From positions 15,060 through 79,059 of the forward strand of contig JBDQHL010000001.1 of NCBI GenBank assembly GCA_040264895.1: a DNA stretch of 64,000 nt, written 5' to 3'. Below the pieces are notes generated by a model. It was given only the letters and a program-made list of their open reading frames with translations. It searched no databases and was not told the DNA's origin. Made by a program: the position numbers and the translations under genes. Below are positions 8,045 through 49,666 of this stretch, in pieces. This stretch comes from Bacteroidota bacterium (lineage in GTDB: Bacteria; Bacteroidota; Ignavibacteria; Kapaibacteriales; UBA2268). Every line of letters starts with the position of its first letter. Positions within the stretch are counted from its first letter, which is position 1.

Positions 8045-10369
8045 TTATTTTTTGATAAACTCAGCATATTGAACACCAGTATCACTTTCTATCATTACAA
8101 AGTAAGTACCAGTAGTCAAATCAGAAACATTTATTCTGCTATCATTTTGATTTATTAACCTAATGCTATTACCAGCTAAATCTAACAACCTTAATTTCTT
8201 ATTCGGTATGTCTTCTATACCTTCTATTGTTATATAATCAACTGTTGGGTTAGGGTAAACATTAATCTTTTCATAACCAGATAGCTCAAAAATACCAGTT
8301 GCGTTTTGGAATGTTAACCAGTCCATAATGCTTTTGAATATATCAGCTCTTTGCGTTTGATCAGTAATATTGAACATATTTATACCCATTACAAAAGAAC
8401 GGCTATTACCATTATCATGACGGACAGCTATTGAGCTATCTTCCGAATTTGACTGGTAAAATACAGCATGCGCATCTTCACCTGTCGGTAATATGTTTGC
8501 TGCTGGAAATGCATTTTGTCCTGAGTTGTATATAGTAAGTACACCACTGACAGTTGGGAAATTACCAGATACAGGATCGGCACTAGCACCATTAAAGGTA
8601 TATGAGCCACCAGTAGCAAAACCAGCATAAAGAGGTCCTGCATAGTTAGCTCCGTATGCCTCTAAGTTGAATGGACTTTCAATTCCTGCTCTAGGAATTG
8701 GACCATCGCCAAGTAAAAATATATTTGTTCCATTTTCTCTTAGTATATCGAACTTTGTATATTCATGCGCATTCAGTGTACCAAAAGCACCAGAGTTCCA
8801 TATTAGTGTTTCTATTCCAGTTGCTCTTATTGCAAATTTTCTAAAATCTTCACCTTCAATATCAATATGATTTTCATAGTTTGTTGTGTTTAATAGAGGT
8901 GTCAATTCTGCTAAACTAGCATTCTGAGGAGCTCCATCATAAACATTAACTAATGGTATAGTATTCGTACCACCCAGGAAGTTGCTATTAACAGTCATTT
9001 CATCTTCGCCAGTCAGACTAGCCATTACTTCCACATTATAAATACCATTACCAGAAACGCTTGAAATACTAACTGGAATCTCTATCATTCCGCCAGGTTG
9101 AATTTCTACAGGAACAATTGTTTCAGGTGTGGTTGCTGAACCAGAAAGACCTTCCGATTCACTTGCATATAAGCTAGAAAATTGAGCTGTAACATTGTTC
9201 ACTGTCATTACCGTTTCGGTACTGTTTGTAATAGTAAACATTGCTGTTCCTTCATTCATCTGGTCTAAGTTTAAAAAAGGAGTATCGATAGAATAGTTCA
9301 TTCCAGTACCACCCTCTAACTTCACAACTTCATTCGACAGATTATCTACGTAGTAAATGTCTCCATTTGGATCGAACTTAACTCCCATTATACTATTTGC
9401 TCCTGTCTGGACTCTTGTAATTTCTTCAAATGTTTTCGAATCAAATACTATAATTTCTCCAGTAGCGTTATCACTTACAATCATATAATTTTTATTAATG
9501 TCGATACCCGATGGGTTTACTAACCCTTCATCTACAACCATTTCCCAGTCACCATCATTCATTTCATTAAATATAGCAAGTGGCTCATTGCCGTTAGCAG
9601 TGTTTGATAAACTTCTACCAATACTACCTGTTAGAATATCTAATCTGTTTACAGAGTTAGTTCCTGGGTTTATGTAGTAAAGATAATTATCCAACATTTC
9701 CATGTGTGCAGGAACCCCTGGGTTCATTTCATATGGAACATCAACATATCTAAATACTTGAGCATCACCATGATTAGAACCACCTGGAGGGTGAGCTTCT
9801 TCGAATTTGTACCTTGCTATAGATTTGGTAGCACCTTCGTTCACCCAAAATGTGTTTTCTGACTCGTAAGCAATACCACTACTATAAGGACTTTGGTGAA
9901 CCATGTCATAGTGGCTACCATTTACTCCACCCGAAGGAGGTGTTCCCACTCTAGCATAGATATCAAGGTCTGATGGCCACATAGATGGACCACACCAAGC
10001 TCCGAAAGTAGCTCTGTTTGCATTGAAATAATTGTGAGTAGTTGCCCATACAGTATCACCAAATGCTAATGCATCAGCAAAAACCATAAAGTGCCAAGCA
10101 TTACCATCTTTTCTGTAGTCATATGCTACGTCATCGGTGCCTGCATCTGTAATCATTACAGTCGTACCACCGTTTTCGCCACCATGATTTAGAATCCAAA
10201 GTTGGTTCATGTCCTGAGGATTGAAGTCCAAATCGGTTGGTCTATCAATCTGATTTGAGCTGTTCGCAATTATTTTTTTATTGATTTTACCGTCAATTAT
10301 GTCTTCAGTTGATGCCGTTAGGCAAATTGCAGACATCAAGAATATACTTAGTAGAAATTTAAACTTCAT
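8045..10369 (-). CDS. secreted protein with a T9SS C-terminal sorting domain; the N-terminal part looks like a beta-propeller
   Basis: 774 aa with a signal peptide (MKFKFLLSIFLMSAICLTAS). The C-terminal ~80 aa are INVYPNPTVDYITIEG...LRLLDLAGNSIRL...GTYFVMIESDTGVQYAEFIKK, the type A CTD pattern. Confidence 0.8.
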   Translation of the reverse strand: MKFKFLLSIFLMSAICLTASTEDIIDGKINKKIIANSSNQIDRPTDLDFNPQDMNQLWILNHGGENGGTTVMITDAGTDDVAYDYRKDGNAWHFMVFADALAFGDTVWATTHNYFNANRATFGAWCGPSMWPSDLDIYARVGTPPSGGVNGSHYDMVHQSPYSSGIAYESENTFWVNEGATKSIARYKFEEAHPPGGSNHGDAQVFRYVDVPYEMNPGVPAHMEMLDNYLYYINPGTNSVNRLDILTGSIGRSLSNTANGNEPLAIFNEMNDGDWEMVVDEGLVNPSGIDINKNYMIVSDNATGEIIVFDSKTFEEITRVQTGANSIMGVKFDPNGDIYYVDNLSNEVVKLEGGTGMNYSIDTPFLNLDQMNEGTAMFTITNSTETVMTVNNVTAQFSSLYASESEGLSGSATTPETIVPVEIQPGGMIEIPVSISSVSGNGIYNVEVMASLTGEDEMTVNSNFLGGTNTIPLVNVYDGAPQNASLAELTPLLNTTNYENHIDIEGEDFRKFAIRATGIETLIWNSGAFGTLNAHEYTKFDILRENGTNIFLLGDGPIPRAGIESPFNLEAYGANYAGPLYAGFATGGSYTFNGASADPVSGNFPTVSGVLTIYNSGQNAFPAANILPTGEDAHAVFYQSNSEDSSIAVRHDNGNSRSFVMGINMFNITDQTQRADIFKSIMDWLTFQNATGIFELSGYEKINVYPNPTVDYITIEGIEDIPNKKLRLLDLAGNSIRLINQNDSRINVSDLTTGTYFVMIESDTGVQYAEFIKK

Positions 10370-22088: not shown

Positions 22089-22426
22089 AACTATCTCTTG
22101 ACTATTTACAATTCATGTAATTCTCTAAAATAACATTATTTTTATAAAAAAGTAACACCGGTATGCATGAATAAGTATTTAGACAAAATGAATGGGTTGG
22201 TAAATTTGAATATTATAGGGCTCTGAAAAATGGCAATATGACGATAAATTAATCTACAAACCCATTAATCTTATTTCAAATTACGTGAGTTCAACTCATC
22301 ATTCAATTCTTTATATTTCTTTGGCTTCTTCAAGAATATAAAACCAACAACGACAATGGTCGAGGTGTCTAAGCTAATCAGCCCCAACTATCTGGTAGAA
22401 ATAGAAGCTACGGCAGTGATAGGGTG

Positions 22427-22948
22427 ATGAAGACTCTAAATAGAATTAGCCAACTCGTATTTGATTCATACATTGGCATAAAATATTTTCATCTTTCAAT
22501 TGCAATCATGATTATTTTCATTTCGGGTTTCTTTTTTGGAGAATTTGCCTTCAAAATAATAATGGTAGTTTTTTGGACTATTTCTTTAACTTTAGTGCTT
22601 TCTACATTGCAAGTAGTTTTTAAGAATGAATATAGAAATACAAAAATTATTCAGACAATTAAGTATTTATTGGCATTCACAATTCTCTTGATTCTATTTG
22701 CTCCAATATTTAAAACTGACTATATTATGCAACTAGGCATGTGGTTAATTATCCCAAGTATATTCATTATTTCACCGTTAGTTTTATCAATAGCAATTAA
22801 CAGACTATTATACGGAAATACGATACCAACCAAATACTATATTAAACACTTTTTTATATTTCTGTTTTTTAATATCTCCGGTATATGGTTTCTAATTCAT
22901 AAAATTAAACGCAAAAATCCATGGAAATCAAAAGAAAATATATACTAA
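22427..22948 (+). CDS. hypothetical polytopic membrane protein
   Basis: About 173 aa with 5 hydrophobic segments. No motif recognised. Confidence 0.45.
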   Translation: MKTLNRISQLVFDSYIGIKYFHLSIAIMIIFISGFFFGEFAFKIIMVVFWTISLTLVLSTLQVVFKNEYRNTKIIQTIKYLLAFTILLILFAPIFKTDYIMQLGMWLIIPSIFIISPLVLSIAINRLLYGNTIPTKYYIKHFFIFLFFNISGIWFLIHKIKRKNPWKSKENIY

Positions 22949-25383: not shown

Positions 25384-27384
25384 ATGAAAAAAACTATACT
25401 TTTTCTTCTTCTGACCCAATTAGTCTTTACATTTTCACTGTTTTCCCAAAAAGGTAAGCAGCAAACCATATATATAAGTGTTGAATACGGAGAATCTGGA
25501 GGGGCTACACTTACCTGGCCCGATGACCCCAACTTTACTGGTACTTATAACATATTTGAAAATAAGTCTGAAACTGCTCAAAACTTCGAGTATGTGGACT
25601 TTGTTTCAGGAAATAGTTGGACTGACAACAGCTATCAGATTGGCACTACGAAAGAGCTAATGGTAACTAAGAAAGATGGAAACAGAATATCTGCTTTCAA
25701 TGTTATATCTATTGGTAAGGAGGTAGAAATGCCTTTCAACCAAGCTGGGATTATATTCTTAGTTGACGAAACACACTCTTTTGCCTTAGAAGGTGATATT
25801 TTCCAAGTACAAATGGAAATGCAAAAAGAAGGATGGGATGTTGTTAAATTAAACATACCAAGAACTGACACTCCTACCGAAGTAAAAGATTTAATCATGC
25901 AAGTAAAAGATGATATGGATCAGGAATTAAAAGCTATTTATATCATAGGTCATGTACCTGTTCCCTATAGTGGCTTTTTCAGCTTAACTGGCACGGCGCT
26001 GCCACCAGATGGTCACGTAGAAGGAAGTGGAAACCACACGGGAGCCTGGCCAGCAGATATGTATTATGGCGATTTGGACGGCAATTGGACTGACCAATAT
26101 GTAAACTACACAGATAGCAGGAGTGATAGAAATAATAATATTCCAGGTGATGGTAAATTTGACCAGAGTGCTCCACCAAGTGATATAGATGTAATAGTCA
26201 GTAGAGTTGATTTTCACGATATGGCTGCATTCCCAGAAGAGGAAGTGGAAATGCTTAGAGATTATTTAGTTAGAACTAGCAATTGGAGACAAGGTAAAAT
26301 ACCCCATATATATCGAGGATTAATTGATGATAATTTCAAAGGTTTGAATATATCAGCTAGTGGTTACCGTGCCATCAGCAACTTGGTCGGTACAGATTCT
26401 CTTTTTGATGACAGAGACTACTTGACTGAAATAACATACAATGAAGATGAAAACACTAATTATTATTTTAGCTTTGGTATGGGTGCTGGCTCTTACACTA
26501 GTTGCAATGGAATTGGCAAAACAAGTGATTTTGTAGAAAACAGAATCAATACCATATTCACTGGTGTTTCGGGAAGTTATTTCGGTGACTGGGATAGTAA
26601 GAACAATTTACTCAGAGCTACTCTGGCATCAGGTGCTCTCGGCAGCTTTTGGAGTGGTATACCGCACTGGTATTTGAATAAACTTGGTGTTGGTGGCACA
26701 ATTGGAGAATGCTTACTTTATACTCAGAATGCTGACTATGTAGGTAGTAACATAACAGTATCACTGAACGGAAGTCAAAGGAAAGTTCATACCACACTTC
26801 TCGGTGACCCTACACTAAAGTTTAAACCAGTAAATGAGCCTGGACCTGTTGCAGTTACAAAAGAAGCAGGTGCAATTAGAGTCAGCTGGGATGAAAATAC
26901 ACCAAATTCTGATGGACACAATCTGTATAGAAGAAATAATGATAATGGTAATGTTATAAAAGTAAATAATGAAGTAATTACTGATAAAGAGTATATAGAC
27001 GTTACAGCGCCTTCGGGTAGCTTTACGTATGTACTAAGAGCAGTAGAATTAGTAGAATTACCAACAAGTAGCTTCTATTCTACAAGTATGGGTTCTTTCT
27101 CAGACCCAATTAGCTTTGTAACATCAGTTGGATATGAAAAAGATGAGAGCTTTGTCGTAGCTCCGAACCCTACTTCTGGTAGTTTCCGTGTACAGTTACC
27201 AACTGATATTAGTGGAATTGAGTCACTAGAAATTCGAGATATGACTGGGAGTATAGTCTATACTCACACTGGAGATGTAGGTGTAGAACAAGTAATTAGC
27301 ACTAACTTAGCAACTGGTTCTTATGTGCTAATAGCAAAAACAAGAACTAGAACGCTTATCAAGAAATTACAGGTTGTTAAATAG
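25384..27384 (+). CDS. secreted protein with an Fn3-like module and a T9SS C-terminal sorting domain
   Basis: 666 aa with a signal peptide. The Fn3-like segment is PGPVAVTKEAGAIRVSWDEN. The CTD is VVAPNPTSGSFRVQLP...IRDMTGSIVYTH...GSYVLIAKTRTRTLIKKLQVVK. Confidence 0.75.
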   Translation: MKKTILFLLLTQLVFTFSLFSQKGKQQTIYISVEYGESGGATLTWPDDPNFTGTYNIFENKSETAQNFEYVDFVSGNSWTDNSYQIGTTKELMVTKKDGNRISAFNVISIGKEVEMPFNQAGIIFLVDETHSFALEGDIFQVQMEMQKEGWDVVKLNIPRTDTPTEVKDLIMQVKDDMDQELKAIYIIGHVPVPYSGFFSLTGTALPPDGHVEGSGNHTGAWPADMYYGDLDGNWTDQYVNYTDSRSDRNNNIPGDGKFDQSAPPSDIDVIVSRVDFHDMAAFPEEEVEMLRDYLVRTSNWRQGKIPHIYRGLIDDNFKGLNISASGYRAISNLVGTDSLFDDRDYLTEITYNEDENTNYYFSFGMGAGSYTSCNGIGKTSDFVENRINTIFTGVSGSYFGDWDSKNNLLRATLASGALGSFWSGIPHWYLNKLGVGGTIGECLLYTQNADYVGSNITVSLNGSQRKVHTTLLGDPTLKFKPVNEPGPVAVTKEAGAIRVSWDENTPNSDGHNLYRRNNDNGNVIKVNNEVITDKEYIDVTAPSGSFTYVLRAVELVELPTSSFYSTSMGSFSDPISFVTSVGYEKDESFVVAPNPTSGSFRVQLPTDISGIESLEIRDMTGSIVYTHTGDVGVEQVISTNLATGSYVLIAKTRTRTLIKKLQVVK

Positions 27385-27775: not shown

Positions 27776-28561
27776 TTACTGTTTTATAAATTTCCGTGTA
27801 ACTACTTCACCATCTAAATCTAATCGAATGAAGTATACCCCAACTGGTAATTGTGAAATGTTATAATCTTGTGAGAATTGTTCAGAATCCAAAACACCAT
27901 TTTTAATAGTCTCTATTTCAGTTCCAATCAAATCTACTATACTTAACTCATAAGCACTACCGGCGATAGCATCAAATGTTATAGTCATATCATTATTCGC
28001 TGGGTTGGGTGAAAGGTTGAAGTTATTGAATTTATTACTTTCTATATTAGTTTGGGTTAAAAATTGGAACGATTTAATCCCTTTTGCTGATTGTACTATA
28101 TAAGTTTTGTTTTTTTTATTGTATTTAGACAATAAACCTATTTTGTCTTTGAATTCAAGATTTTGAGAATATTCAAGACTTCTTGTTTGCATATTAAAAA
28201 AAAGTAATGGGCTACCGAAATTTAGAAATAGAATTTTTTCATCATCAGTAAATATTGTTCTTCCAGAGTGTTTATTATCTGGTAGAATTTCAAATCTACT
28301 TTCTTCATAAATGTTGTTTATTAGAATAGAGTCAATTAACTCTCCTGTAAGGGCCTCTCGGATTTCAACTGTACCAATATCTCCATCCGCTCCCATCATT
28401 ATAAATTGATTCTCTCCTTTTAAAAACTCTATATCTAAATGATAAGTATGACCATAAGGGTTTATATCCCATTCTTTCTCCCACACAGTAACAATCTCAC
28501 CTGCCTCAATATGGAGTGCAGTAAGTATGAAAGCAGTTAGGAATAGTAATAGGTTTTTCAT
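27776..28561 (-). CDS. secreted protein with a T9SS C-terminal sorting domain
   Basis: 261 aa with a signal peptide. The CTD is LSPNPANNDMTITFDA...LSIVDLIGTEIETI...GVYFIRLDLDGEVVTRKFIKQ. Confidence 0.75.
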   Translation of the reverse strand: MKNLLLFLTAFILTALHIEAGEIVTVWEKEWDINPYGHTYHLDIEFLKGENQFIMMGADGDIGTVEIREALTGELIDSILINNIYEESRFEILPDNKHSGRTIFTDDEKILFLNFGSPLLFFNMQTRSLEYSQNLEFKDKIGLLSKYNKKNKTYIVQSAKGIKSFQFLTQTNIESNKFNNFNLSPNPANNDMTITFDAIAGSAYELSIVDLIGTEIETIKNGVLDSEQFSQDYNISQLPVGVYFIRLDLDGEVVTRKFIKQ

Positions 28562-37410: not shown

Positions 37411-40344
37411 TCACTTATTAATGAGCAACTTCTGAGTAATACGATTTTCTTCAGAAATAATTTCAATTATATAATTTCCTGTTGGCATTTCTGATAAATC
37501 AAGGTTGATATTGTAGTCTCCCTTTTGCAATACTTCATTCAAATATCTAAATCTTTCGCCATTATTACTAATCAAATCTATTGTAGTGTTCCTGGTTTTA
37601 TCAACGCTTACTACCATATTGACTTGCTCGCCAGTTGGGTTTGGATATGCAGCTTCAACACTAAAAATGAATGGGACATTGTCAAACCTTATCCTGTATT
37701 CATAATCACATTTTGAGTCAGAGAAAGTTACTACTTCTTCAGTCTTGCCTTGCACTACTATGTCTTTCTCCAAACAATTGAATGTCATTTGAATTAAGTC
37801 TGCAATGTTATTTTCTGTTGGTTCATCGTCATAAAAACAGATAATCAAAGGAAGTGACGTATCTGGTGGTATAACCAATGGCAGTTGTGACTGAGGTATG
37901 AAGAAATTAAATTTATCTCTAAGAGAAATCTGTTCCAATGTTATCGGCAATAGGCCTTTGTTTTCAACCATAACAGATTGGCATGTAGAATTACCTATTG
38001 ACGTTGCTGGCAATATAACTGCATCTCCATTTGTGTTATTAACAAAATCTGCTGTGAACCCTTGTAATACACCACTATAAAGAGTGTCATTGCCTACCAA
38101 ATCTTCAAATAGTATAGTGTATGTGCCATCCTTCATGGGGTCAATAAGTTCAAGACCTAGTTCAATATTATCCAAGTCGTTTCTTATTTCAGAGATCGCA
38201 ATGTTATCAGATTCGATTTGTTCATATTTTCCAAAGCCATATTGTGTTCCTAATGATTCACTAGCTAATAATGTTCTATCTCCACATTCTAAGTTAGTTT
38301 GAGTTAATTCAGGTGGGCTTTTATCTTCAGGTAAAAAGAAACTAACTATACCTAAATCTTCCTCGAAACAGTCATTTCCTAATCTAAGTGTATCTGTAAA
38401 AACTCCAAATTCTAACTCCGATTCATAGCAAACTTGAAATGTATAAGAAGCTCCAGCTGCCAATGTATTTGGCACTTGAGTCATTGTAAATTTATCATTG
38501 GATACAAGTTTCAAATCTTCTATTGATTTGTCGGTAATACCATAATTTGTGATTGTTATATTTTGGCAATATGTTCTAAATGGCTTAACGGTATCTGTTT
38601 CTAATTCTGCAAACTCATAGCTACCTGTATTAGATATAGTTAGCGTGAAACCCTCAATTATTATGGTCTCTGACGTTTTAGAGCCATCTACATCCTTAGC
38701 ATAGAATTCGACAATTCCGTCATTATATTTATTAATCAAAGTTAGACTTGCAGAGTAATTTTCAGAATCGTCATTTAGCACTTCAATATCCATATTCTGA
38801 TTTTCTGTAAATACAATTGAATCCAAACCAGTATCTTGCGACAGCTCTTCGGTGAAACCAAAGCTTGCTATTTCACAATCTCCAGAGAGAAAACTATATT
38901 CGGGTGGTGTCCAGTCGGTTTCCTCTAATCCAAGACCTCCTACGTAGCCATACGAATCGGTTTGACCGTAGCCATATATACAAATCCCAAAAGTAGTGTC
39001 CGCTTTTATATTATGCCCACCAGGGCTAACCAATATATTTGCATACGAGTAATCAATACCTAATACTGGTTGAAAATCAGCATCCACTGGGTTGTTGTCT
39101 ATTCTTAGAGAGTTTATATCTTCAGTAGGCATTATCACTGAAACATAATGCTTGTCGTAATTAGGCAAATCAACATTTACAAAATTATATTCTCTTAAAA
39201 ACTGTAGTTTTGGTGGGAATAATACCATAAATGGGTCACTATCACTAGCAGAGAATTGCCCAGAATTAGTTCTTGAAGACCTTTTGTACAAGCTCGCTCT
39301 GATTGGCTTGTCTCCTTCTATATAGAATGGTTCATTTATATTACGAGTTATAACATCACCTTGGTTCATTGTAGCATACTCATCACCACCAACGTAAAGC
39401 GTTGTGTTGTCGTAGGCAACAGTGATTCGGTTTAAATCTGACTCATTGCTTGGTATTACATCAGGATCAGCAAATGGAACTACAAATACATCCCTTCCCC
39501 ATGATTCCAATGGTATCATTTGAGAAAGTAAAAAATCTCTTGAACCAACTTTGTCAAAAGGGATATTTGCTCTTTGTTGTCCGCCAAAAACGGCAACTGG
39601 TTTGTCAGAAATAATTCTTGTTCCTGTTAAATCAGAATTCCCTGAGCTAGTTGTCCCGTTTATTATGTCTGCTTGAACCAGATAGACTTCACCTCTATCA
39701 AGGACTATAGTTTGTTTATCGGTTCCATTTCTGAATGTACTAGTTGTTGGGTTTATATCTACAGTAGTCTCATCCTCAGTTCCAACCACACAAAATTGTG
39801 AAGGTGTAGTTCCAAAATAGCCAAAGGTAGAATTAAAATTTGACTCATAGGAAAAGACAAAATAATTCTTACCCAAAGCATCCACAGGATAAACAAGACA
39901 TGCGTCGCTCGAAAATTCTGCTTCGCTGTGAATAACCACTGCTACATCCTCATCTGATGTTACTTGAAAAGTTTTTTCGCTTATTCTTTCAGTTTCTCCA
40001 CCATCAAAGTTTCGTCTACCCGAGGTATTTTGACCAGTAAGTTCACCAGTTCTTGCATTGATAAATATCTTAGCTATACCATTGGGTTGGTCTATTGTGA
40101 AAGGTTCTACTTGTGGTGTACCAAATCTATTTCTATAGTTTAACTCCCCACTAGTAGGTGTTTGACTTGTGATAAATATTATAACCTGATCGTTATCAAT
40201 ACCATCATTATGGAAATTAGGCATAAAAGCGAAGTAAAATTCTTTACCATAATTATCAATAGCCTCGTTTTGGGCATCAACTGAGTTTAAGCTCAAAAAC
40301 AAAGATATTTGAATAATAAATAGTAGTTTTGTAATCATTTTCAT
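37411..40344 (-). CDS. large secreted adhesin-like protein with a T9SS C-terminal sorting domain
   Basis: 977 aa with a signal peptide. The N-terminal block YGKEFYFAFMPNFHN...IIFITSQTPTSG resembles the IgGFc-binding-like N-terminal domain seen in Bacteroidota surface proteins. The CTD is AAYPNPTGEQVNMVVS...IDLISNNGERF...GNYIIEIISEENRITQKLLINK. Confidence 0.75.
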   Translation of the reverse strand: MKMITKLLFIIQISLFLSLNSVDAQNEAIDNYGKEFYFAFMPNFHNDGIDNDQVIIFITSQTPTSGELNYRNRFGTPQVEPFTIDQPNGIAKIFINARTGELTGQNTSGRRNFDGGETERISEKTFQVTSDEDVAVVIHSEAEFSSDACLVYPVDALGKNYFVFSYESNFNSTFGYFGTTPSQFCVVGTEDETTVDINPTTSTFRNGTDKQTIVLDRGEVYLVQADIINGTTSSGNSDLTGTRIISDKPVAVFGGQQRANIPFDKVGSRDFLLSQMIPLESWGRDVFVVPFADPDVIPSNESDLNRITVAYDNTTLYVGGDEYATMNQGDVITRNINEPFYIEGDKPIRASLYKRSSRTNSGQFSASDSDPFMVLFPPKLQFLREYNFVNVDLPNYDKHYVSVIMPTEDINSLRIDNNPVDADFQPVLGIDYSYANILVSPGGHNIKADTTFGICIYGYGQTDSYGYVGGLGLEETDWTPPEYSFLSGDCEIASFGFTEELSQDTGLDSIVFTENQNMDIEVLNDDSENYSASLTLINKYNDGIVEFYAKDVDGSKTSETIIIEGFTLTISNTGSYEFAELETDTVKPFRTYCQNITITNYGITDKSIEDLKLVSNDKFTMTQVPNTLAAGASYTFQVCYESELEFGVFTDTLRLGNDCFEEDLGIVSFFLPEDKSPPELTQTNLECGDRTLLASESLGTQYGFGKYEQIESDNIAISEIRNDLDNIELGLELIDPMKDGTYTILFEDLVGNDTLYSGVLQGFTADFVNNTNGDAVILPATSIGNSTCQSVMVENKGLLPITLEQISLRDKFNFFIPQSQLPLVIPPDTSLPLIICFYDDEPTENNIADLIQMTFNCLEKDIVVQGKTEEVVTFSDSKCDYEYRIRFDNVPFIFSVEAAYPNPTGEQVNMVVSVDKTRNTTIDLISNNGERFRYLNEVLQKGDYNINLDLSEMPTGNYIIEIISEENRITQKLLINK

Positions 40345-45146: not shown

Positions 45147-45707
45147 ATGGAATTGAAATACAGATTGTTAGATCATCCATTTTACCAAGCTTGGACTGCT
45201 GGTGAAGTAACTAAAGACCAATTGTCTAAGTATCACAAATCCTATGCTGAGTTCATAGAGCTTATGCCACAGTATTGGGATAAAATCAACAAAGCATTCA
45301 ACCAAGACACTGACTTGGCGAAAGAAGTTGTAGCAGACGAAAAATCGCACATACCACTTTGGGCTAACTGGTCTAACAAATTGCCAGTAACTGAAGGCCA
45401 CCCAAGAATGACAGAAGTGATAGAAGGAATGAACAATATGACTCCGAGCGAATTGCTTGGTGCTGTTCAAGCATTCGAAACTCAGCAACCAGAAGTAGCA
45501 GAGACTAAGAAAGCTGGTCTTCTTGAATTTTACGGCTTCGACGAAGGCGACACTAAGTACTTCGATGAGCACATGGAAGAAGAGGAGCATATCAACTATG
45601 GCACTATGCTAAAAGAAAAATTCGCTAACCAAGAAGAATACAAAGCAGGATTTGACAAAGGTTCTGAGCTATTCTACAACGGTTTGAACTTATTTGTAAA
45701 CTGCTAA
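45147..45707 (+). CDS. heme-oxygenase-like fold protein of the PqqC/TenA/CADD family
   Basis: 186 aa. The N-terminus LLDHPFYQAWTAGEVTKDQLSKYHKSYAEFIELMPQYW matches the HPFYxxWxxGxLTxxxLxxY pattern of CADD/PqqC-like di-iron proteins. Confidence 0.65.
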   Translation: MELKYRLLDHPFYQAWTAGEVTKDQLSKYHKSYAEFIELMPQYWDKINKAFNQDTDLAKEVVADEKSHIPLWANWSNKLPVTEGHPRMTEVIEGMNNMTPSELLGAVQAFETQQPEVAETKKAGLLEFYGFDEGDTKYFDEHMEEEEHINYGTMLKEKFANQEEYKAGFDKGSELFYNGLNLFVNC

Positions 45708-45737
45708 TAAAGCAATTACAAGTAATGCTTAACTTAA

Positions 45738-45768
45738 AACCAACTCTTTTCTAAGGGTTGGTTTTTTT
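45738..45768 (+). terminator. intrinsic terminator T1, left copy of a duplicated 31-nt element
   Basis: Sequence aaccaactcttttctaagggttggttttttt. The stem is ccaactctt/aagggttgg with one G-U pair, followed by T7. It matches 49377-49407 at 28 of 31 positions. Confidence 0.8.
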
Positions 45769-46082
45769 GTTATATTGGGAAAGTCAAAAATAAGAGTTTT
45801 AAAAACATAAGCGGCTAACGTTCGCATATCCATTACAAGAGAGAATATATTAACTAAATAACTATATTTATTTAGTGACTTAACTTCATCAATGGAATAT
45901 TGTTTTACGAAAGTAATAATTGTTTGATTTATGGATGGTTGGGCACAATAAAAAAAAGATACGAATCAATGAATAGACAACTAACCGAAATAAAACAAAA
46001 GAACACATTTGGGTTAGACCATTGTTCACCATAGAACATTTGATAAGTTAATTTAAAAAAATGAGTAGATTTGGATAAATTT

Positions 46083-47603
46083 ATGGATAAAAATGTAATC
46101 ATTATAGGATCTGGTGCTGGAGGTCTTTCTTCAGCAATTCTTCTAGCAAAAAAAGGCTATGATGTAACTGTAATTGAAAAAAATGATAGTTTTGGAGGTA
46201 GAGGTGGAGTATTTACTGCCAAAGGATTTCAATTTGATATGGGACCATCTTGGTACTTAATGCCAGATATTTTTGAACATTTCTATTCTCTTGTAGGAGA
46301 AAACATCAATGATTATTTTAGTTTAAAGAGACTTGATCCTTCTTACAAAATTTGGTTCGAAGAACAAAAAAATCCCATAGAAATGACATCTGATTTAAAA
46401 AAAGATGCCAAGCTATTTGAATCTTATGAGCCTGGGGTCATGAAGAAAATAAATGTTTACCTCAAAGAAGCAGCAGCAAAATATAATATTTCGAAAAACA
46501 CTTTTATTTATAAACCTTTTGATACTGTTTTAGATTTTTTTGACAGCAAAACGATATTTTTATGGACAAAATTCTCTGTCGTTTCCTCTTTACACAAGCA
46601 TATTGCAAAGTATGTAAAACATCCTTTGATTAGAAAAATCCTTCAATATCCTTTGCTTTTTTTAGGAACTTCACCATATAAAGCTCCAGCTGTATATTCT
46701 CTTATGAATCATATTGATTTTGAAATGGGTGTTTTTTACCCAATGGGTGGAATGACAAAAATATTTGAAACATTATACAGCATAGCTAAAAAAAATGGAG
46801 TTAAATTTGTGTTTAACAGTCCTGTAGATAAGATTATTGTAAAAGACAAAATAGCTGTTGGTGTGTCAACAAATGGAACAAATATTATGGCTGACATCAT
46901 TATTTCAAATGCAGATTATCAATTTACAGAAATGCAATTACTAGATAAAAAAAATAGACAGTTTTCTGAAAATTACTGGAATAGCAGAACCTTAGCTCCT
47001 TCTGGATTTATTATATATTTAGGTGTAAAAAAACAATTTAAAGAGCTAAAACATCATAACCTATTCTTTGCTGAGAAATGGAAGAAAAGTTTTGAAGATA
47101 TTTTTAAAGGTAAAACCCTTCCAGAAAGTCCGTCGTATTACATTTGTGCACCTAGTAAAACAGATCCATCTGTAGCACCAGAAGATTGCGAAAATCTTTT
47201 TGTTTTAGTACCAACAGCTACAAATTTAAAGCTTGATGAAAAAACCATTAAAAATTATAGAGATAAAATCTTAAACCACATGACCAAGACTATGAATTTA
47301 GAAGGTTTAGAAGAAAACATTATTTTTGAACGTATTTTTACTGGTCAAGACTTTTCTAAATATTACAATGCTTATAAAGGTACAGCGCTAGGTTTGGCTC
47401 AAAACCTAAGTCAAACAGCTGTTTTTCGTCCAAAAACTCATTCTAAAAAAGTAAAAAATTTATATTACACAGGAGCAAATACTAATCCTGGTATTGGTGT
47501 TCCTATGTGTATTATAAGTTCACAAATTGTTTACAAACGAATTCATGGTATTACGCACGGCGCACCATTATCTGTTGAAGATACAAAATTTGAAAATAAT
47601 TAA
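46083..47603 (+). CDS. phytoene-desaturase-family carotenoid desaturase (CrtD/CrtI-like)
   Basis: About 506 aa from the ATG at 46083. The FAD dinucleotide fold is NVIIIGSGAGGLSSAILLAKKGYDVTVIEKNDSFGGR. The C-terminal motif is YYTGANTNPGIGVPMCIISS. Confidence 0.88.
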   Translation: MDKNVIIIGSGAGGLSSAILLAKKGYDVTVIEKNDSFGGRGGVFTAKGFQFDMGPSWYLMPDIFEHFYSLVGENINDYFSLKRLDPSYKIWFEEQKNPIEMTSDLKKDAKLFESYEPGVMKKINVYLKEAAAKYNISKNTFIYKPFDTVLDFFDSKTIFLWTKFSVVSSLHKHIAKYVKHPLIRKILQYPLLFLGTSPYKAPAVYSLMNHIDFEMGVFYPMGGMTKIFETLYSIAKKNGVKFVFNSPVDKIIVKDKIAVGVSTNGTNIMADIIISNADYQFTEMQLLDKKNRQFSENYWNSRTLAPSGFIIYLGVKKQFKELKHHNLFFAEKWKKSFEDIFKGKTLPESPSYYICAPSKTDPSVAPEDCENLFVLVPTATNLKLDEKTIKNYRDKILNHMTKTMNLEGLEENIIFERIFTGQDFSKYYNAYKGTALGLAQNLSQTAVFRPKTHSKKVKNLYYTGANTNPGIGVPMCIISSQIVYKRIHGITHGAPLSVEDTKFENN

Positions 47604-48467
47604 ATGAAATATTTCTATTGGATTCTCAGTATAAGCAGACCTAGGTTTTGGCCCTATCTTGCAGGACCTTGGGCAGTCGGGATGGTCACTGCATCAGATT
47701 CTATAAAAGATTTTCAGAGCACTATGTTTTGGTCTGGTTTATTATTCTTTCTTTGGCCTGCCAACTTTATTCTTTATGGTATAAATGACTATGCAGATGG
47801 AGACACAGATCAATACAATCCAAAAAAGCAACAATATGAAAACCTTTACAATACAAAACAGAACAAACATTTATTAATTATACTTGCAGCTTTAGCTATA
47901 GTTTCTTTTGTATTTGTTTCCTATTTTCCAAGTTTTGAAGCTCAACTAGTTTTTGTATTATGGTTATTTTTATCTATTTTCTATTCCGTTCGTCCTTTAC
48001 GATTTAAAGCAAGGTTGTTTATAGATTCTCTTTCTAATTTACTTTATATTCTACCTGGAATTATGGCATTTTTAATTTTTCAACCCTTAGAAAATCTCTC
48101 TTGGCCTTTAGTTTTTGCAGCGTGGGTTTGGGCTATGGGAATGCACTTATTTTCTGCCTTACCAGACATTAGAGCAGATAAGGCCGCTAAAGTAAAGACA
48201 ACAGCTGTTTGGCTTGGTTTTAAAAAAGCCACTTTACTCACTTTGCTTTATTACAGTATAGCCGCATTACTTTGTGCAATGTATGCTAATATTTGGCTTG
48301 GTCTATTAGCATTCATTAGCTATTGTATTCCCACAGCTTATATCTATTTCACATCAAACACCCATGGTGTATTTCTTATTTACAAAAAATTTCCTTTTAT
48401 AAATTTAATCAATGGAGCAGCTCTATTCATCTACGTAATTTTCGAATACGACTTACTTATTTCTTAA
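47604..48467 (+). CDS. UbiA-superfamily prenyltransferase, lycopene-elongase (LyeJ/CrtEb)-like by context
   Basis: 287 aa with about 8 TM segments. Asp-rich motifs are NDYADGDTD and LPDIRADKAAKV. The ATG lies immediately after the upstream TAA. Confidence 0.75.
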   Translation: MKYFYWILSISRPRFWPYLAGPWAVGMVTASDSIKDFQSTMFWSGLLFFLWPANFILYGINDYADGDTDQYNPKKQQYENLYNTKQNKHLLIILAALAIVSFVFVSYFPSFEAQLVFVLWLFLSIFYSVRPLRFKARLFIDSLSNLLYILPGIMAFLIFQPLENLSWPLVFAAWVWAMGMHLFSALPDIRADKAAKVKTTAVWLGFKKATLLTLLYYSIAALLCAMYANIWLGLLAFISYCIPTAYIYFTSNTHGVFLIYKKFPFINLINGAALFIYVIFEYDLLIS

Positions 48468-48468
48468 A

Positions 48469-49206
48469 ATGAAAAAAATACAAACATATACATTGCTATT
48501 ATCATTTCTTATGGTGTTCATAGGATACTTTGCGTACACAGCTCGAAATGATTATTTCTCTATTATCCCAATGATTTTATTGGCTGTTCCTGCTTATATT
48601 GCCTTACTTAGAACAAACCTTCGAAAAGGGCTTATTTTTATACTTATTTTAAGCTGCTATGCCACTGGAATTGAAGCATTAAGTATTACTACATCTTTTC
48701 CTTATGGACCTTTTGAATATAATGCACAATTAGGGTACAAACTATTTGGTTTAGTTCCTTGGTCTGTAAGTCTTGGTTGGGTCCCATTAGTTATTGGGAC
48801 TGCTGCCATTAGTAGCTGGCTGTTTAAAATACGGAAAGCCCAGTTTTTAGCAAGTGTCTTCCTCTTGGTAGTATCAGATTTGGTAATAGATCCAGGAGCA
48901 GTATTAATGAATTTTTGGACTTGGACCAATCCGGGCTTATACTATACTATACCATTTTCAAATTATTTAGGATGGATTTTTTCTGCTGTTATTGGTGAGC
49001 TTTTATTGTTTTACTTAATACCCAAAAGTGATATTTCAAAGCTGCCCTATTATGCAACTTATACGCTGGCCTTAGGAAATGCTTTTTGGGTTGGTGTAAC
49101 TTTTAACGCCTCATACTGGATTCCGTGTATAATTGGTATAATCCTTCAAATTTTAATTTTAATAGCGCTATCAAAAACCAATGAACACCTAGCAATAAGT
49201 GAATAA
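48469..49206 (+). CDS. carotenoid biosynthesis membrane protein of the CruF / DUF422 (PF04240-like) type
   Basis: 245 aa with about 7 TM segments. The blocks FPYGPFEYNAQLGYKLFGLVPWSVSLGW and DLVIDPGAVLMNFWTWTNPGLYYTIPFSNYLGW match my memory of the CruF-type carotenoid 1,2-hydratase family. Confidence 0.7.
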   Translation: MKKIQTYTLLLSFLMVFIGYFAYTARNDYFSIIPMILLAVPAYIALLRTNLRKGLIFILILSCYATGIEALSITTSFPYGPFEYNAQLGYKLFGLVPWSVSLGWVPLVIGTAAISSWLFKIRKAQFLASVFLLVVSDLVIDPGAVLMNFWTWTNPGLYYTIPFSNYLGWIFSAVIGELLLFYLIPKSDISKLPYYATYTLALGNAFWVGVTFNASYWIPCIIGIILQILILIALSKTNEHLAISE

Positions 49207-49376
49207 CAGCGATAGGTAATGCCAAGCATTTATGTGTATCTTCCTTAGGTATAAAAGACAAAAAAAGTTCAACTACCACTGTTGACTATGCAGGCCGCTT
49301 TGAGGAGGAAAGCTGTAGAAATGATTTTTTTTAACCACAGTCGCTAATGCCCTTGGCTTTACACGCAGCTGAGGAC

Positions 49377-49407
49377 AACTAACCCTTTTCTTAGGGTTGG
49401 TTTTTTT
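49377..49407 (+). terminator. intrinsic terminator T2, right copy of the duplicated 31-nt element
   Basis: Sequence aactaacccttttcttagggttggttttttt. It has a stem and T7 run and matches T1 at 28 of 31 positions. Confidence 0.75.
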
Positions 49408-49440
49408 GGTACTAAACGGCATTATTAAATTATACCACCA

Positions 49441-49600
49441 CCTGTGCCCCTCTGGAGGAGCTTGTCACGTCTTCAGCGTGAGCTGGCAGAACTTGTTATG
49501 ACTGAGGAGGATTGATTTAACAATGTCCACCTCCGACTTTTGCTGTTATCAAAAGCCACCTCCGCCAGCGGAGAACAACCAAGTCTATTTTTGGTATTGT
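49441..49600. repeat. GC-rich hairpin-repeat tract C
   Basis: Elements are gcccctc-tg-gaggagc (49446-49461), cacg-tcttcag-cgtg, ...gactgaggaggattg, and ctccg-ccag-cggag (49560-49573). This is the same module order as tracts A and B. Confidence 0.7.
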
Positions 49601-49625
49601 TTTTTTTGTTATATTGGGGGAAAGG
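49578..49625 (+). repeat. degenerate third terminator-like copy plus an 18-nt exact repeat
   Basis: Weak stem accaa/ttggt (49578-49582 / 49591-95) followed by T8. The sequence tttttttgttatattggg at 49601-49618 is identical to 45762-45779. Confidence 0.7.
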
Positions 49626-49666
49626 TATAATAAATAAACTAAAAAGCTTATGCTGGCAACAATTGC

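What the first reader, a model, noticed from the sequence alone, without database searches (positions are those of the whole stretch)
45738..49407. AT-rich three-gene carotenoid cassette with the bacterioruberin-type trio (CrtD/CrtI-like desaturase, LyeJ-like UbiA prenyltransferase, CruF-like protein)
Seen in the sequence: three tightly packed plus-strand genes (46083-47603, 47604-48467, 48469-49206). The second ATG directly follows the first TAA, and 1 nt separates the second and third genes. They encode an FAD-dependent phytoene-desaturase-family enzyme, a UbiA prenyltransferase with NDYADGDTD and DIRAD motifs, and a 7-TM CruF/DUF422-like protein. Established knowledge: this trio, in this kind of tight cluster, is what haloarchaea use to turn lycopene into the C50 carotenoid bacterioruberin (crtD, lyeJ, cruF). 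CruF alone acts as a carotenoid 1',2'-hydratase in myxol- or salinixanthin-type pathways. Inference: this T9SS-bearing FCB bacterium may make elongated (C45/C50) or hydrated carotenoids. No phytoene synthase, GGPP synthase or cyclase lies in the window, so the lycopene supply must be encoded elsewhere. Spot counts on a few 60-nt lines gave about 22-35% GC inside the cassette and about 37-40% in the flanking genes. Together with the flanking direct repeats, this suggests horizontal acquisition.
Basis: partly seen in the sequence, partly recalled or inferred. Interest (0 to 1): 0.7.

Follow-up and report, generated by a model that had tools for sequence, protein, structure and literature searches.

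The report
Flavobacterial carotenoid C5-elongation operon
Three tightly linked genes in an uncultured marine flavobacterium are true relatives of the bacterioruberin trio (desaturase, lycopene elongase, hydratase) and probably make an elongated C45 or C50 carotenoid, but they belong to an old bacterial lineage of this module and do not look like a recent import from salt-loving archaea.

Summary

**Identity**
- Gene 1 is a CrtID-type desaturase (NF058655, 629 bits; cut-off 640).
- Gene 2 passes the curated model that haloarchaeal Lye proteins hit (NF009516, 231 bits; cut-off 205).
- Gene 3 is a PF04240 protein closest to bacterioruberin-type CruF, but it scores below the curated cut-offs.

**Lineage**
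- All three proteins fall in a clade of uncultured marine Bacteroidota with 100% bootstrap support.
- That clade is essentially never sister to haloarchaea (0-2% of replicates).
- The same gene order occurs in haloarchaea, nanohaloarchaea and Asgard archaea.

**Horizontal acquisition is weakly supported**
- Cassette GC is 30-34%, against a gene mean of 35.7 ± 3.1%.
- The "flanking repeats" are terminator hairpins, present in three species-specific copies.
- No mobility genes, plasmid copies or viral copies were found.
- The cassette's position here is unique, while relatives are partly syntenic with each other.

**Likely product**
The literature points to a C45 carotenoid. Jejuia makes 2'-isopentenylsaproxanthin and has a separate desaturase-plus-elongase locus. 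Gillisia makes the 3''-hydroxy form. C50 bacterioruberin is the alternative if the host has no cyclase. I could not test orthology to the Jejuia or Gillisia genes.

**Verdict:** a new member of a known kind, of moderate interest.

The parts
45736..45779 (+). Intrinsic terminator of the upstream CADD-like gene (hairpin 45736-45765 plus T-run). It is copy 1 of a three-copy, species-specific repeat (45738-45779).
   Evidence: Terminator scan. Repeat family D1. Alignment of the three copies. Exact 18-mer shared with copy 3. Absent from relatives.
45780..46082 (+). AT-rich (about 27% GC) 5' intergenic region, presumed to hold the promoter. A Bacteroidetes-type -7 motif TAnnTTTG (TAGATTTG) lies at 46066-46073, 9 nt before the ATG. 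Promoter function is inferred, not shown.
   Evidence: Sequence. GC of 45708-46082 and motif search.
46083..47603 (+). CrtID-type carotenoid desaturase (506 aa) with an N-terminal FAD-binding motif IIGSGAGGL. Predicted 3,4-desaturase that may also act as a phytoene desaturase.
   Evidence: PF01593 and NAD_binding_8. NF058655 CrtID at 629 bits (cut-off 640), with other CrtD models at 290 bits or less. Calibration: haloarchaea 736-748, Patescibacteria 658, flavobacterial clade 610-629. 95 of 104 family-conserved positions kept.
47604..48467 (+). Lye/LyeJ-family UbiA prenyltransferase (287 aa). Predicted C5 (DMAPP) elongase/hydratase acting on the psi-end of a carotenoid.
   Evidence: PF01040. 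NF009516 at 230.7 bits, above the 205 cut-off. The same model gives 431-434 bits for haloarchaeal cluster Lye. Asp-rich motifs are invariant. 50 of 54 conserved positions kept.
48469..49206 (+). CruF-family membrane protein (245 aa, 7-8 hydrophobic segments). Predicted hydratase of the added isopentenyl unit.
   Evidence: PF04240 at 1.1e-40. TIGR03460 at 121.5 bits (cut-off 154.7) and NF041333 at 104 bits (cut-off 300). The gamma-carotene CruF model gives only 59 bits. Hydropathy. Clade gap from >=51% to <=41% identity.
49377..49418 (+). Terminator-like hairpin plus T-run 170 nt after the cruF stop codon, the likely end of the operon. Copy 2 of the repeat.
49577..49618 (+). Copy 3 of the repeat. 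With copy 1 it brackets 3.84 kb that contains the cassette, and it shares the exact tail TTTTTTTGTTATATTGGG with copy 1.

Best explanation
The three genes form one operon, with translationally coupled junctions and a terminator downstream. The operon encodes the psi-end C5-elongation module of carotenoid biosynthesis.

Proposed steps, all inferred from homology:
1. The Lye-type prenyltransferase adds a dimethylallyl (C5) unit to C-2 of a lycopene-type psi-end and hydrates C-1.
2. The CrtID-type desaturase introduces the 3,4 double bond. It may also carry out the phytoene-to-lycopene desaturations.
3. CruF hydrates the double bond of the added isopentenyl group to give a 3-hydroxy-3-methylbutyl side chain.

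Phytoene synthase and GGPP synthase must be encoded outside the window.

The final product depends on whether the host has a lycopene cyclase. If it has a cyclase and CrtZ, as is typical of Flavobacteriaceae, the expected product is a C45 monocyclic carotenoid of the 3''-hydroxy-2'-isopentenylsaproxanthin type. I put this at about 0.5. If both ends stay acyclic, the product would be C50 bacterioruberin, at about 0.3.

The cassette belongs to an old lineage of the module confined to uncultured marine Bacteroidota. It is not a recent haloarchaeal import.
For: Family membership:
- Pfam hits for all three proteins.
- The prenyltransferase passes NF009516, the model that haloarchaeal Lye proteins hit at 431-434 bits.
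- The desaturase's best model by more than 300 bits is the bifunctional CrtID.
- CruF is closest to the bisanhydrobacterioruberin-hydratase models.

Gene order:
- The collinear order desaturase, prenyltransferase, CruF is shared with haloarchaea, nanohaloarchaea and Asgard archaea and with a curated Halarchaeum cluster.

Conservation:
- Catalytic motifs and 50/54, 95/104 and 20/22 family-conserved positions are retained.
- The ORFs are intact in more than 10 species.
- The cassette is 100% identical in independent metagenome contigs of the same species.

Single-desaturase clusters:
- Patescibacteria operons have CruF, CrtID, CrtB, GGPPS and Lye with only one desaturase.
- Saprospiraceae-type clusters have GGPPS, CrtB, CrtID, Lye and a CruF-IDI fusion, which links CruF to DMAPP supply.

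Literature:
- The cluster desaturase c0507 is bifunctional CrtI/CrtD (PMC11946383).
- Jejuia makes C45 2'-isopentenylsaproxanthin and has a separate 'phytoene dehydrogenase + lycopene elongase' locus (PMC4256183).
- Gillisia makes the 3''-hydroxy derivative (cited in PMC10784355).
- Relatives here show the matching dichotomy: a trio in about 10 lineages and a pair without cruF in 2.

Phylogeny:
- The Bacteroidota clade has 100% bootstrap support for all three proteins.
Against: - No enzyme of this clade has been assayed.
- The desaturase (629 vs 640) and CruF (121.5 vs 154.7) fall below NCBI's curated equivalog cut-offs.
- The rest of the pathway (crtB, GGPPS, cyclase) is not in the window and could not be searched for in the host genome. 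C45 versus C50 is therefore unresolved.
- I could not retrieve the Jejuia or Gillisia genes. They did not appear among the top hits of any search. The cultured C45 producers may therefore use a more distant branch of the family.
- The trees are neighbour-joining trees on the 80 best-scoring loci only.
Confidence: 0.78

Rival explanations
1. The cassette makes genuine acyclic C50 bacterioruberin, as in haloarchaea and Arthrobacter, with both ends of lycopene elongated, desaturated and hydrated.
For: - It has the same three families in the same order as the haloarchaeal cluster.
- A CrtID-type desaturase can supply lycopene by itself (PMC11946383).
- Self-contained clusters without a cyclase exist in Patescibacteria and in other Bacteroidota.
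- The host genome appears small, with an identical CruF on a 2.25-Mb contig, so it might lack a cyclase.
Against: - Every elongated carotenoid reported so far from Flavobacteriaceae is monocyclic C45.
- Flavobacteriaceae typically carry crtY and crtZ (PMC4256183, PMC11855829).
- Nothing in the window bears on whether a cyclase is present.
Confidence: 0.3
2. This is an ordinary flavobacterial C40 pathway of the myxol or saproxanthin type. CrtD and CruF act as 3',4'-desaturase and 1',2'-hydratase on gamma-carotene, and the UbiA gene serves an unrelated function such as quinone biosynthesis.
For: - Cultured flavobacteria use CrtD plus CruF for myxol (PMC11855829).
- The CruF family includes 1',2'-hydratases.
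- CruF here is below the bacterioruberin-type cut-offs.
Against: - The prenyltransferase sits between the two genes with 0-nt and 1-nt junctions, and it passes the Lye model at 231 bits against 39 bits or less for quinone and chlorophyll prenyltransferases.
- The desaturase scores 629 on CrtID but only 290 on the 1-hydroxycarotenoid CrtD model (cut-off 500).
- The gamma-carotene CruF model gives only 59 bits.
- No crtI, crtB, crtZ, crtY or crtA-OH gene is linked.
- No cultured myxol-type CruF appeared among the 77 CruF hits.
Confidence: 0.05
3. The cassette is a recently acquired genomic islet: inserted here by horizontal transfer, with the duplicated terminator element as its footprint.
For: - Direct repeats at 45738-45779 and 49577-49618 bracket 3.84 kb and share an exact 18-mer. 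They are species-specific.
- The cassette's neighbours here are shared with no relative, whereas relatives share neighbours with each other.
- A broken AAA_5 ATPase gene lies just downstream.
- The desaturase has the lowest GC3 of the window's genes (z = -2.15).
Against: - No integrase, transposase or tRNA was found.
- GC and codon usage of two of the three genes are within 1 sd.
- No plasmid or viral copies were found.
- All three proteins sit inside the Bacteroidota clade with normal branch lengths, so any transfer would be within the family and not from archaea.
- The one relative that keeps the upstream genes (L095) is rearranged on both sides, so there is no clean empty site.
- The repeats are terminator hairpins and could have been duplicated locally.
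Confidence: 0.2

Closest known systems
Haloarchaeal bacterioruberin cluster crtD(c0507)/crtI - lye(lyeJ) - cruF (Haloarcula japonica, Halobacterium salinarum; Yang et al. 2015 as cited in PMC11946383; Halarchaeum pCBA1220-01)
   Same: - The same three protein families in the same order, tightly packed.
- The prenyltransferase passes the same curated model.
- The desaturase's best model is the CrtID equivalog.
   Different: - Identity is about 35-40% for the prenyltransferase.
- CruF is very divergent (104-122 bits here against 204-433 bits).
- There is no adjacent crtB.
- The host is a non-halophilic marine flavobacterium.
- It forms a separate clade, sister to haloarchaea in 0-2% of bootstraps.
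- The substrate is probably monocyclic, which is an inference.
C45 isopentenyl-saproxanthin pathway of cultured Flavobacteriaceae (Jejuia pallidilutea 11shimoA1: 2'-isopentenylsaproxanthin; Gillisia limnaea DSM 15749: 3''-hydroxy-2'-isopentenylsaproxanthin)
   Same: - Same bacterial family.
- Jejuia has a 'phytoene dehydrogenase + lycopene elongase' locus separate from its crtI-crtB-crtZ-crtY cluster (PMC4256183). This matches the stand-alone cassette here.
- The hydrated and non-hydrated products mirror the trio and pair arrangements seen among relatives.
   Different: - The genes of those strains have not been functionally characterised in the searchable literature.
- Their sequences could not be retrieved here, so orthology is untested.
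- They were not among the top hits, so they may be a different branch.
Bacterial bacterioruberin clusters (Arthrobacter agilis and A. bussei, PMC9122864; Patescibacteria, PMC9948471)
   Same: The same module occurs in bacteria. Patescibacteria members are the nearest non-Bacteroidota relatives by distance.
   Different: - Patescibacteria operons include crtB and GGPPS and have a different gene order.
- Identity to the prenyltransferase is about 40-47%.
Flavobacterial myxol cluster (Nonlabens spongiae, Flavobacterium P99-3; PMC11855829)
   Same: It uses a CrtI-family 3,4-desaturase and a CruF-family hydratase on a psi-end group, in the same bacterial family.
   Different: - It has no prenyltransferase.
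[quoted passage not shown]
- The window's desaturase and CruF score poorly on the corresponding models (290 vs a 500 cut-off; 59 vs 400).

Membership tests
Lye/LyeJ lycopene elongase/hydratase (UbiA superfamily; NCBIfam NF009516 / PRK12875) | UbiA prenyltransferase fold with two Asp-rich motifs (NDxxDxxxD and DxxxD) | tested here: met
   PF01040 at 4.9e-22. N61, D62, D65, D69, D188 and D192 are invariant in a 24-sequence alignment.
Lye/LyeJ lycopene elongase/hydratase (UbiA superfamily; NCBIfam NF009516 / PRK12875) | Scores above the curated cut-off of the model that bona fide haloarchaeal cluster Lye proteins hit, and far above quinone and chlorophyll prenyltransferase models | tested here: met
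   230.7 bits against a 205 cut-off. The next families score 114 and 105, and chlorophyll synthase, UbiA and MqnP score 39 or less. Haloarchaeal Lye scores 431-434 on the same model.
Lye/LyeJ lycopene elongase/hydratase (UbiA superfamily; NCBIfam NF009516 / PRK12875) | Genomic linkage to a CrtD/CrtI-type desaturase and CruF | tested here: met
   0-nt and 1-nt junctions. The same order is found in 10 Flavobacteriaceae loci and in archaea.
Lye/LyeJ lycopene elongase/hydratase (UbiA superfamily; NCBIfam NF009516 / PRK12875) | Catalyses C5 addition at C-2 with C-1 hydration of a carotenoid psi-end | not testable with these tools
   This needs heterologous expression and HPLC-MS.
CrtID bifunctional phytoene desaturase/3,4-desaturase (NCBIfam NF058655) | FAD-dependent CrtI-family fold | tested here: met
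   PF01593, NAD_binding_8 and TIGR02734 at 503 bits (cut-off 238).
CrtID bifunctional phytoene desaturase/3,4-desaturase (NCBIfam NF058655) | Reaches the equivalog cut-off of 640 bits | tested here: not met
   629 bits, a marginal miss. The whole flavobacterial clade scores 610-629, Patescibacteria 658-724 and haloarchaea 736-748. CrtID is still the best model by more than 300 bits.
CrtID bifunctional phytoene desaturase/3,4-desaturase (NCBIfam NF058655) | Performs both phytoene desaturation and 3,4-desaturation | not testable with these tools
   The only support is indirect. Related clusters in Patescibacteria and Saprospiraceae-type genomes contain crtB and GGPPS but only this one desaturase.
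Bisanhydrobacterioruberin hydratase CruF (TIGR03460 / NF041333) | PF04240 membrane protein | tested here: met
   1.1e-40, 140 bits. 7-8 hydrophobic segments.
Bisanhydrobacterioruberin hydratase CruF (TIGR03460 / NF041333) | Reaches the curated equivalog cut-offs | tested here: not met
   121.5 vs 154.7 and 104 vs 300. Patescibacteria CruF also fails, at 96 and 87. It is still closer to these models than to the gamma-carotene CruF model (59 bits).
Bisanhydrobacterioruberin hydratase CruF (TIGR03460 / NF041333) | Encoded directly downstream of lye | tested here: met
Flavobacterial myxol-type CrtD/CruF cluster | Embedded with crtI, crtB, crtZ, crtY (and crtA-OH); the desaturase matches the 1-hydroxycarotenoid CrtD equivalog | tested here: not met
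   No such genes occur in the window. NF042421 scores 290 against a 500 cut-off.
Horizontally acquired genomic island | Atypical composition, mobility genes, flanking repeats, phylogenetic incongruence, empty site in relatives | tested here: inconclusive
   - Composition is near the window average, except for the desaturase's GC3.
- No mobility genes or tRNA were found.
- Repeats are present, but they are terminator hairpins.
- The proteins sit in a Bacteroidota clade.
- The location is unique to this species, but no clean empty site was found.

The most novel reading that the evidence does not exclude
A globally distributed clade of uncultured marine Flavobacteriaceae, apparently with small genomes, makes C45 or C50 isoprenoid-elongated, hydroxylated carotenoids that have never been reported from open-ocean bacterioplankton. 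These pigments would serve a lineage-specific role such as membrane reinforcement, photoprotection or acting as a rhodopsin antenna. In this species the three-gene module was relocated as a unit, leaving a duplicated terminator element as a footprint.
Probability: 0.3. Interest if true: 0.6.

Novelty: new member of a known kind. Interest (0 to 1): 0.42.

Why it matters
- **Ocean pigments.** Marine Flavobacteriaceae are major degraders of algal organic matter. If a widespread uncultured clade makes C45 or C50 carotenoids, this adds an unrecognised pigment class to surface-ocean bacterioplankton. That is relevant to pigment biomarkers, photoprotection and membrane adaptation, and possibly to rhodopsin antenna chemistry.
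- **The C45 pathway.** The flavobacterial C45 isopentenyl-saproxanthin pathway has had only an unverified genome-announcement assignment since 2014. This cassette offers concrete candidate genes for it.
- **Biotechnology.** Haloarchaeal CrtI/CrtD enzymes were inactive in E. coli, presumably because they need high salt (PMC11946383). A non-halophilic marine version of the whole module could be a workable route to bacterioruberin-type antioxidants in standard hosts.

Tried and rejected
- **RNA genes.** Rfam at gathering threshold on the whole window and at E-value threshold on 45650-49900, plus a tRNA scan, found nothing meaningful.
- **Fold of the non-coding unit 49440-49612.** z = -0.94, not significant. 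A two-motif pattern search in the fetched loci found nothing.
- **Solved structures.** A sequence search with the prenyltransferase gave no hit at E <= 0.01.
- **Naming unnamed NCBI hits.** The listing of cluster members on ten unnamed hits was uninformative. Look-ups of P0034, P0118 and P0092 returned Patescibacteria-type contexts, not Jejuia or Gillisia.
- **Empty-site search.** Using the upstream CADD-like gene, same-species contigs all carry the cassette. The nearest relative, L095, is rearranged on both sides.
- **Mobile vehicles.** No viral contigs carry it. Only haloarchaeal megaplasmids do.
- **Downstream genes.** PADLOC gave no McrBC or other confident defence assignment.
- **Literature.** Searches for a characterised flavobacterial elongase or a prior report of this clade found none. 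The original Jejuia carotenoid paper is not held.
- **L090 desaturase.** I rejected the idea that it is a pseudogene. It has two indels and no mismatches, so an assembly artefact is more likely.

Full report
**1. Observation**

Three + strand ORFs lie at 46083-47603 (506 aa from the ATG; a TTG at 46071 is an alternative start), 47604-48467 (287 aa) and 48469-49206 (245 aa). The junctions are TAA|ATG and TAA-A-ATG.

Pfam assigns the three proteins to PF01593 (6.7e-28), PF01040 (4.9e-22) and PF04240 (1.1e-40). The prenyltransferase carries NDYADGDTD and DIRAD. The Asn and Asp residues of these motifs are invariant in an alignment of 24 family members. CruF has 7-8 hydrophobic segments.

A hairpin and T-run terminator follows the upstream gene (45736-45765). 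Another lies 170 nt after cruF (49377-49402). The three genes therefore look like one transcription unit. A Bacteroidetes-type TAnnTTTG motif sits 9 nt before the first ATG. Promoter function is inferred only.

No other carotenoid gene occurs among the window's ORFs of 120 aa or more. These include core genes such as TatC, FBPase, AspRS and UvrC, a Dps/ferritin-like gene, and several T9SS cargo proteins. The 2245-aa product of 52656-59393 is SprA.

**2. Identity of the three proteins**

NCBIfam is more discriminating than Pfam here.

| Protein | Best model | Window score | Cut-off | Other models |
|---|---|---|---|---|
| Prenyltransferase | NF009516 (PRK12875) | 230.7 | 205 | two related prenyltransferase models 114 and 105; chlorophyll synthase, UbiA, MqnP and others <= 39 |
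| Desaturase | NF058655 (CrtID, bifunctional) | 629 | 640 | CrtD equivalogs <= 290 |
| CruF | TIGR03460 / NF041333 | 121.5 / 104 | 154.7 / 300 | gamma-carotene 1'-hydroxylase CruF 59 |

- Prenyltransferases from haloarchaeal crtD-lye-cruF clusters score 431-434 on NF009516. Nanosalina scores 376, an Asgard member 293 and a Saccharibacteria member 249. The window protein is therefore a member of the Lye family by NCBI's own threshold.
- On the CrtID model, haloarchaeal cluster desaturases score 736-748, Patescibacteria 658-724, and the whole flavobacterial clade 610-629. The window desaturase is a near-threshold member of that orthologous group.
- CruF is closest to the bisanhydrobacterioruberin-hydratase models but does not reach them. 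Patescibacteria CruFs also fail.
- The clade retains 50 of 54, 95 of 104 and 20 of 22 positions that are at least 90% conserved in the rest of each family.

**3. Distribution, phylogeny and synteny**

The prenyltransferase has 70-76% identical relatives only in marine metagenomes and uncultured Flavobacteriaceae MAGs. The next hits are about 40-47% identical and come from Patescibacteria, haloarchaea, nanohaloarchaea, Asgard archaea and others.

The desaturase and CruF searches show the same sharp gap. The desaturase drops from 66-84% to <=53% identity, and CruF from >=51% to <=41%. No cultured flavobacterium appears in the lists.

Among 80 species-representative loci:
- The collinear trio occurs in 10 Flavobacteriaceae/Bacteroidota loci, and also in haloarchaea, nanohaloarchaea and Asgard archaea.
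- Most Patescibacteria have a rearranged layout.
- Two Bacteroidota lineages (SP29 and SAG AG-461-G08) have only the desaturase and prenyltransferase, with no cruF remnant.

Neighbour-joining trees with 100 bootstraps recover the Bacteroidota clade in 100, 100 and 100% of replicates for the three proteins. A Bacteroidota-plus-haloarchaea grouping appears in 2, 0 and 0%. The nearest outside relatives by distance are bacterial.

Gene-order maps show that relatives share downstream neighbours:
- a VWA-like and AAA gene pair in 5 loci spanning deep and shallow branches;
- another family in 3 loci;
- a histone-deacetylase-family gene in 3 loci.

None shares the window's neighbours.

**4. Was the cassette horizontally acquired?**

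- **Composition.** Gene-level GC is 30.2, 33.1 and 34.1%, against 35.7 ± 3.1% for 45 window genes. Only the desaturase is low (GC3 z = -2.15). Codon-usage distances are ordinary. The upstream CADD-like gene is in fact the stronger compositional outlier.
- **Repeats.** The flanking repeats are terminator hairpins. They form a three-copy, species-specific element (45738-45779, 49377-49418, 49577-49618). It is absent after cruF in relatives and absent after the CADD-like gene in the closest syntenic relative. Copies 1 and 3 share an exact 18-mer and bracket 3.84 kb.
- **Mobility.** No integrase, transposase or tRNA lies nearby. No viral contig carries a relative, and only haloarchaeal megaplasmids do.
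- **Empty site.** Same-species contigs from several metagenomes are 100% identical and all carry the cassette. The one relative that keeps redoxin, DsbD_N and CADD is rearranged on both sides, so there is no clean empty site.

My reading is long residence of the module in this Bacteroidota lineage, with a possible relocation in this species. Recent import from archaea is effectively excluded.

**5. Mechanism and product**

The established pathway is Yang et al. 2015, as cited in PMC11946383:
1. Lye adds a C5 unit at C-2 and hydrates C-1.
2. CrtD desaturates C-3,4.
3. CruF hydrates the added isopentenyl units.

Three observations here support transferring that chemistry to this cassette:
- Patescibacteria operons have CruF, CrtID, CrtB, GGPPS and Lye with a single desaturase and no cyclase.
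- Saprospiraceae-type clusters have GGPPS, CrtB, CrtID, a Lye-type prenyltransferase and a CruF-IDI fusion. IDI makes DMAPP, the C5 donor.
- Catalytic residues are retained.

For the host family, the literature points to C45 products:
- Jejuia pallidilutea makes zeaxanthin plus 2'-isopentenylsaproxanthin. It has a 'phytoene dehydrogenase + lycopene elongase' locus separate from its crtI-crtB-crtZ-crtY cluster.
- Gillisia limnaea makes 3''-hydroxy-2'-isopentenylsaproxanthin, in which the C5 unit is hydrated. That is the step a CruF would perform (reference).

The pair-only and trio arrangements among the relatives match these two products. I therefore favour a C45 monocyclic, side-chain-hydroxylated product (about 0.5) over C50 bacterioruberin (about 0.3). 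The choice hinges on a cyclase that cannot be examined from this window.

**6. Comparison with what is known, and novelty**

The cassette works like the haloarchaeal bacterioruberin trio. By curated thresholds the prenyltransferase is a member of the Lye family, the desaturase is a near-miss for CrtID, and CruF is a clear non-member of the archaeal CruF equivalogs, although it is a PF04240 protein.

It is not the flavobacterial myxol-type CrtD/CruF pair.

Lye-type modules in bacteria have already been reported for Arthrobacter and Patescibacteria. A putative lyeJ/crtD pair has been noted in a marine Asgard archaeon. A flavobacterial elongase locus was noted in 2014.

I found no report of this uncultured marine clade and no functional test of a flavobacterial elongase. 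Hence the verdict: a new member of a known kind.

**7. Limits**

- No enzyme assays exist for this clade.
- The rest of the host genome could not be searched.
- The trees are distance-based and use only the 80 best-scoring loci.
- Records titled 'uncultured Gammaproteobacteria' cluster among Patescibacteria. I did not verify their labels.

Noticed in passing
window 49207-49830: This 620-nt non-coding stretch after cruF holds two tandem units of about 200 nt (49207-49418 and 49419-49625). Each ends in a terminator-like hairpin. Unit B has a relative in another flavobacterial contig (L095 2717-2830, opposite strand, 70% over 116 nt). The GGAGG and CCACCTCCG motifs are conserved, while an internal hairpin differs in sequence but still pairs. 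There is no Rfam match, and the fold z-score is only -0.94. It could be a small RNA or a small repeat element.
   Followed up: partly
window 49831-52587: An AAA_5 (McrB-like) ATPase gene is broken into three ORFs (49831-50196, 50348-50593, 50696-51208). It is followed by an overlapping 460-aa ORF with no Pfam or PADLOC match. The same broken frames occur in independent same-species contigs (L088, L089). This may be a decayed two-gene restriction or defence pair.
   Followed up: partly
L153 8001-9245; L154 8001-9233: CruF is fused to a type-1 isopentenyl-diphosphate isomerase in Saprospiraceae-type Bacteroidota. The fusion sits within a cluster of GGPPS, CrtB, CrtID, a shortened Lye-type prenyltransferase and CruF-IDI. 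The fusion links CruF-family proteins to DMAPP supply.
   Followed up: partly
L147 3880-8843; L149, L150, L151, L152: Patescibacteria-type genomes carry a compact operon of (CruF), CrtID, phytoene synthase, GGPP synthase and Lye. It has a single desaturase and no cyclase, so it is a self-contained bacterioruberin-type pathway in 4-5 genes.
   Followed up: partly
L005/L012 (Flavobacteriaceae MAG SP29) and L017 (SAG AG-461-G08): These two Bacteroidota lineages have the desaturase and prenyltransferase but no cruF and no cruF remnant. This predicts a non-hydrated isopentenyl product, as in Jejuia.
   Followed up: partly
window 45147-45707: The upstream CADD/Haem_oxygenas_2-like gene (TIGR04305 at 80 bits, below its 200 cut-off) is the strongest codon-usage outlier in the window (distance 0.259; GC3 z = +2.35). 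It is more atypical than the carotenoid genes.
   Followed up: no
window 22424-22948: This 174-aa ORF has no Pfam hit and the lowest GC in the window (26.3%, z = -3.05).
   Followed up: no
L090 10937-12455: In one Logan assembly of the same species the desaturase is split into three ORFs by two indels with no mismatches. This is most likely an assembly artefact and not a pseudogene.
   Followed up: yes
window 52656-59393 and 8045-10369, 25384-27384, 27776-28561, 37411-40344: The window encodes SprA (2245 aa) and at least four proteins with Por_Secre_tail sorting domains, so the host has a type IX secretion system. An identical CruF lies on a 2.25-Mb contig, which suggests a small genome.
   Followed up: partly
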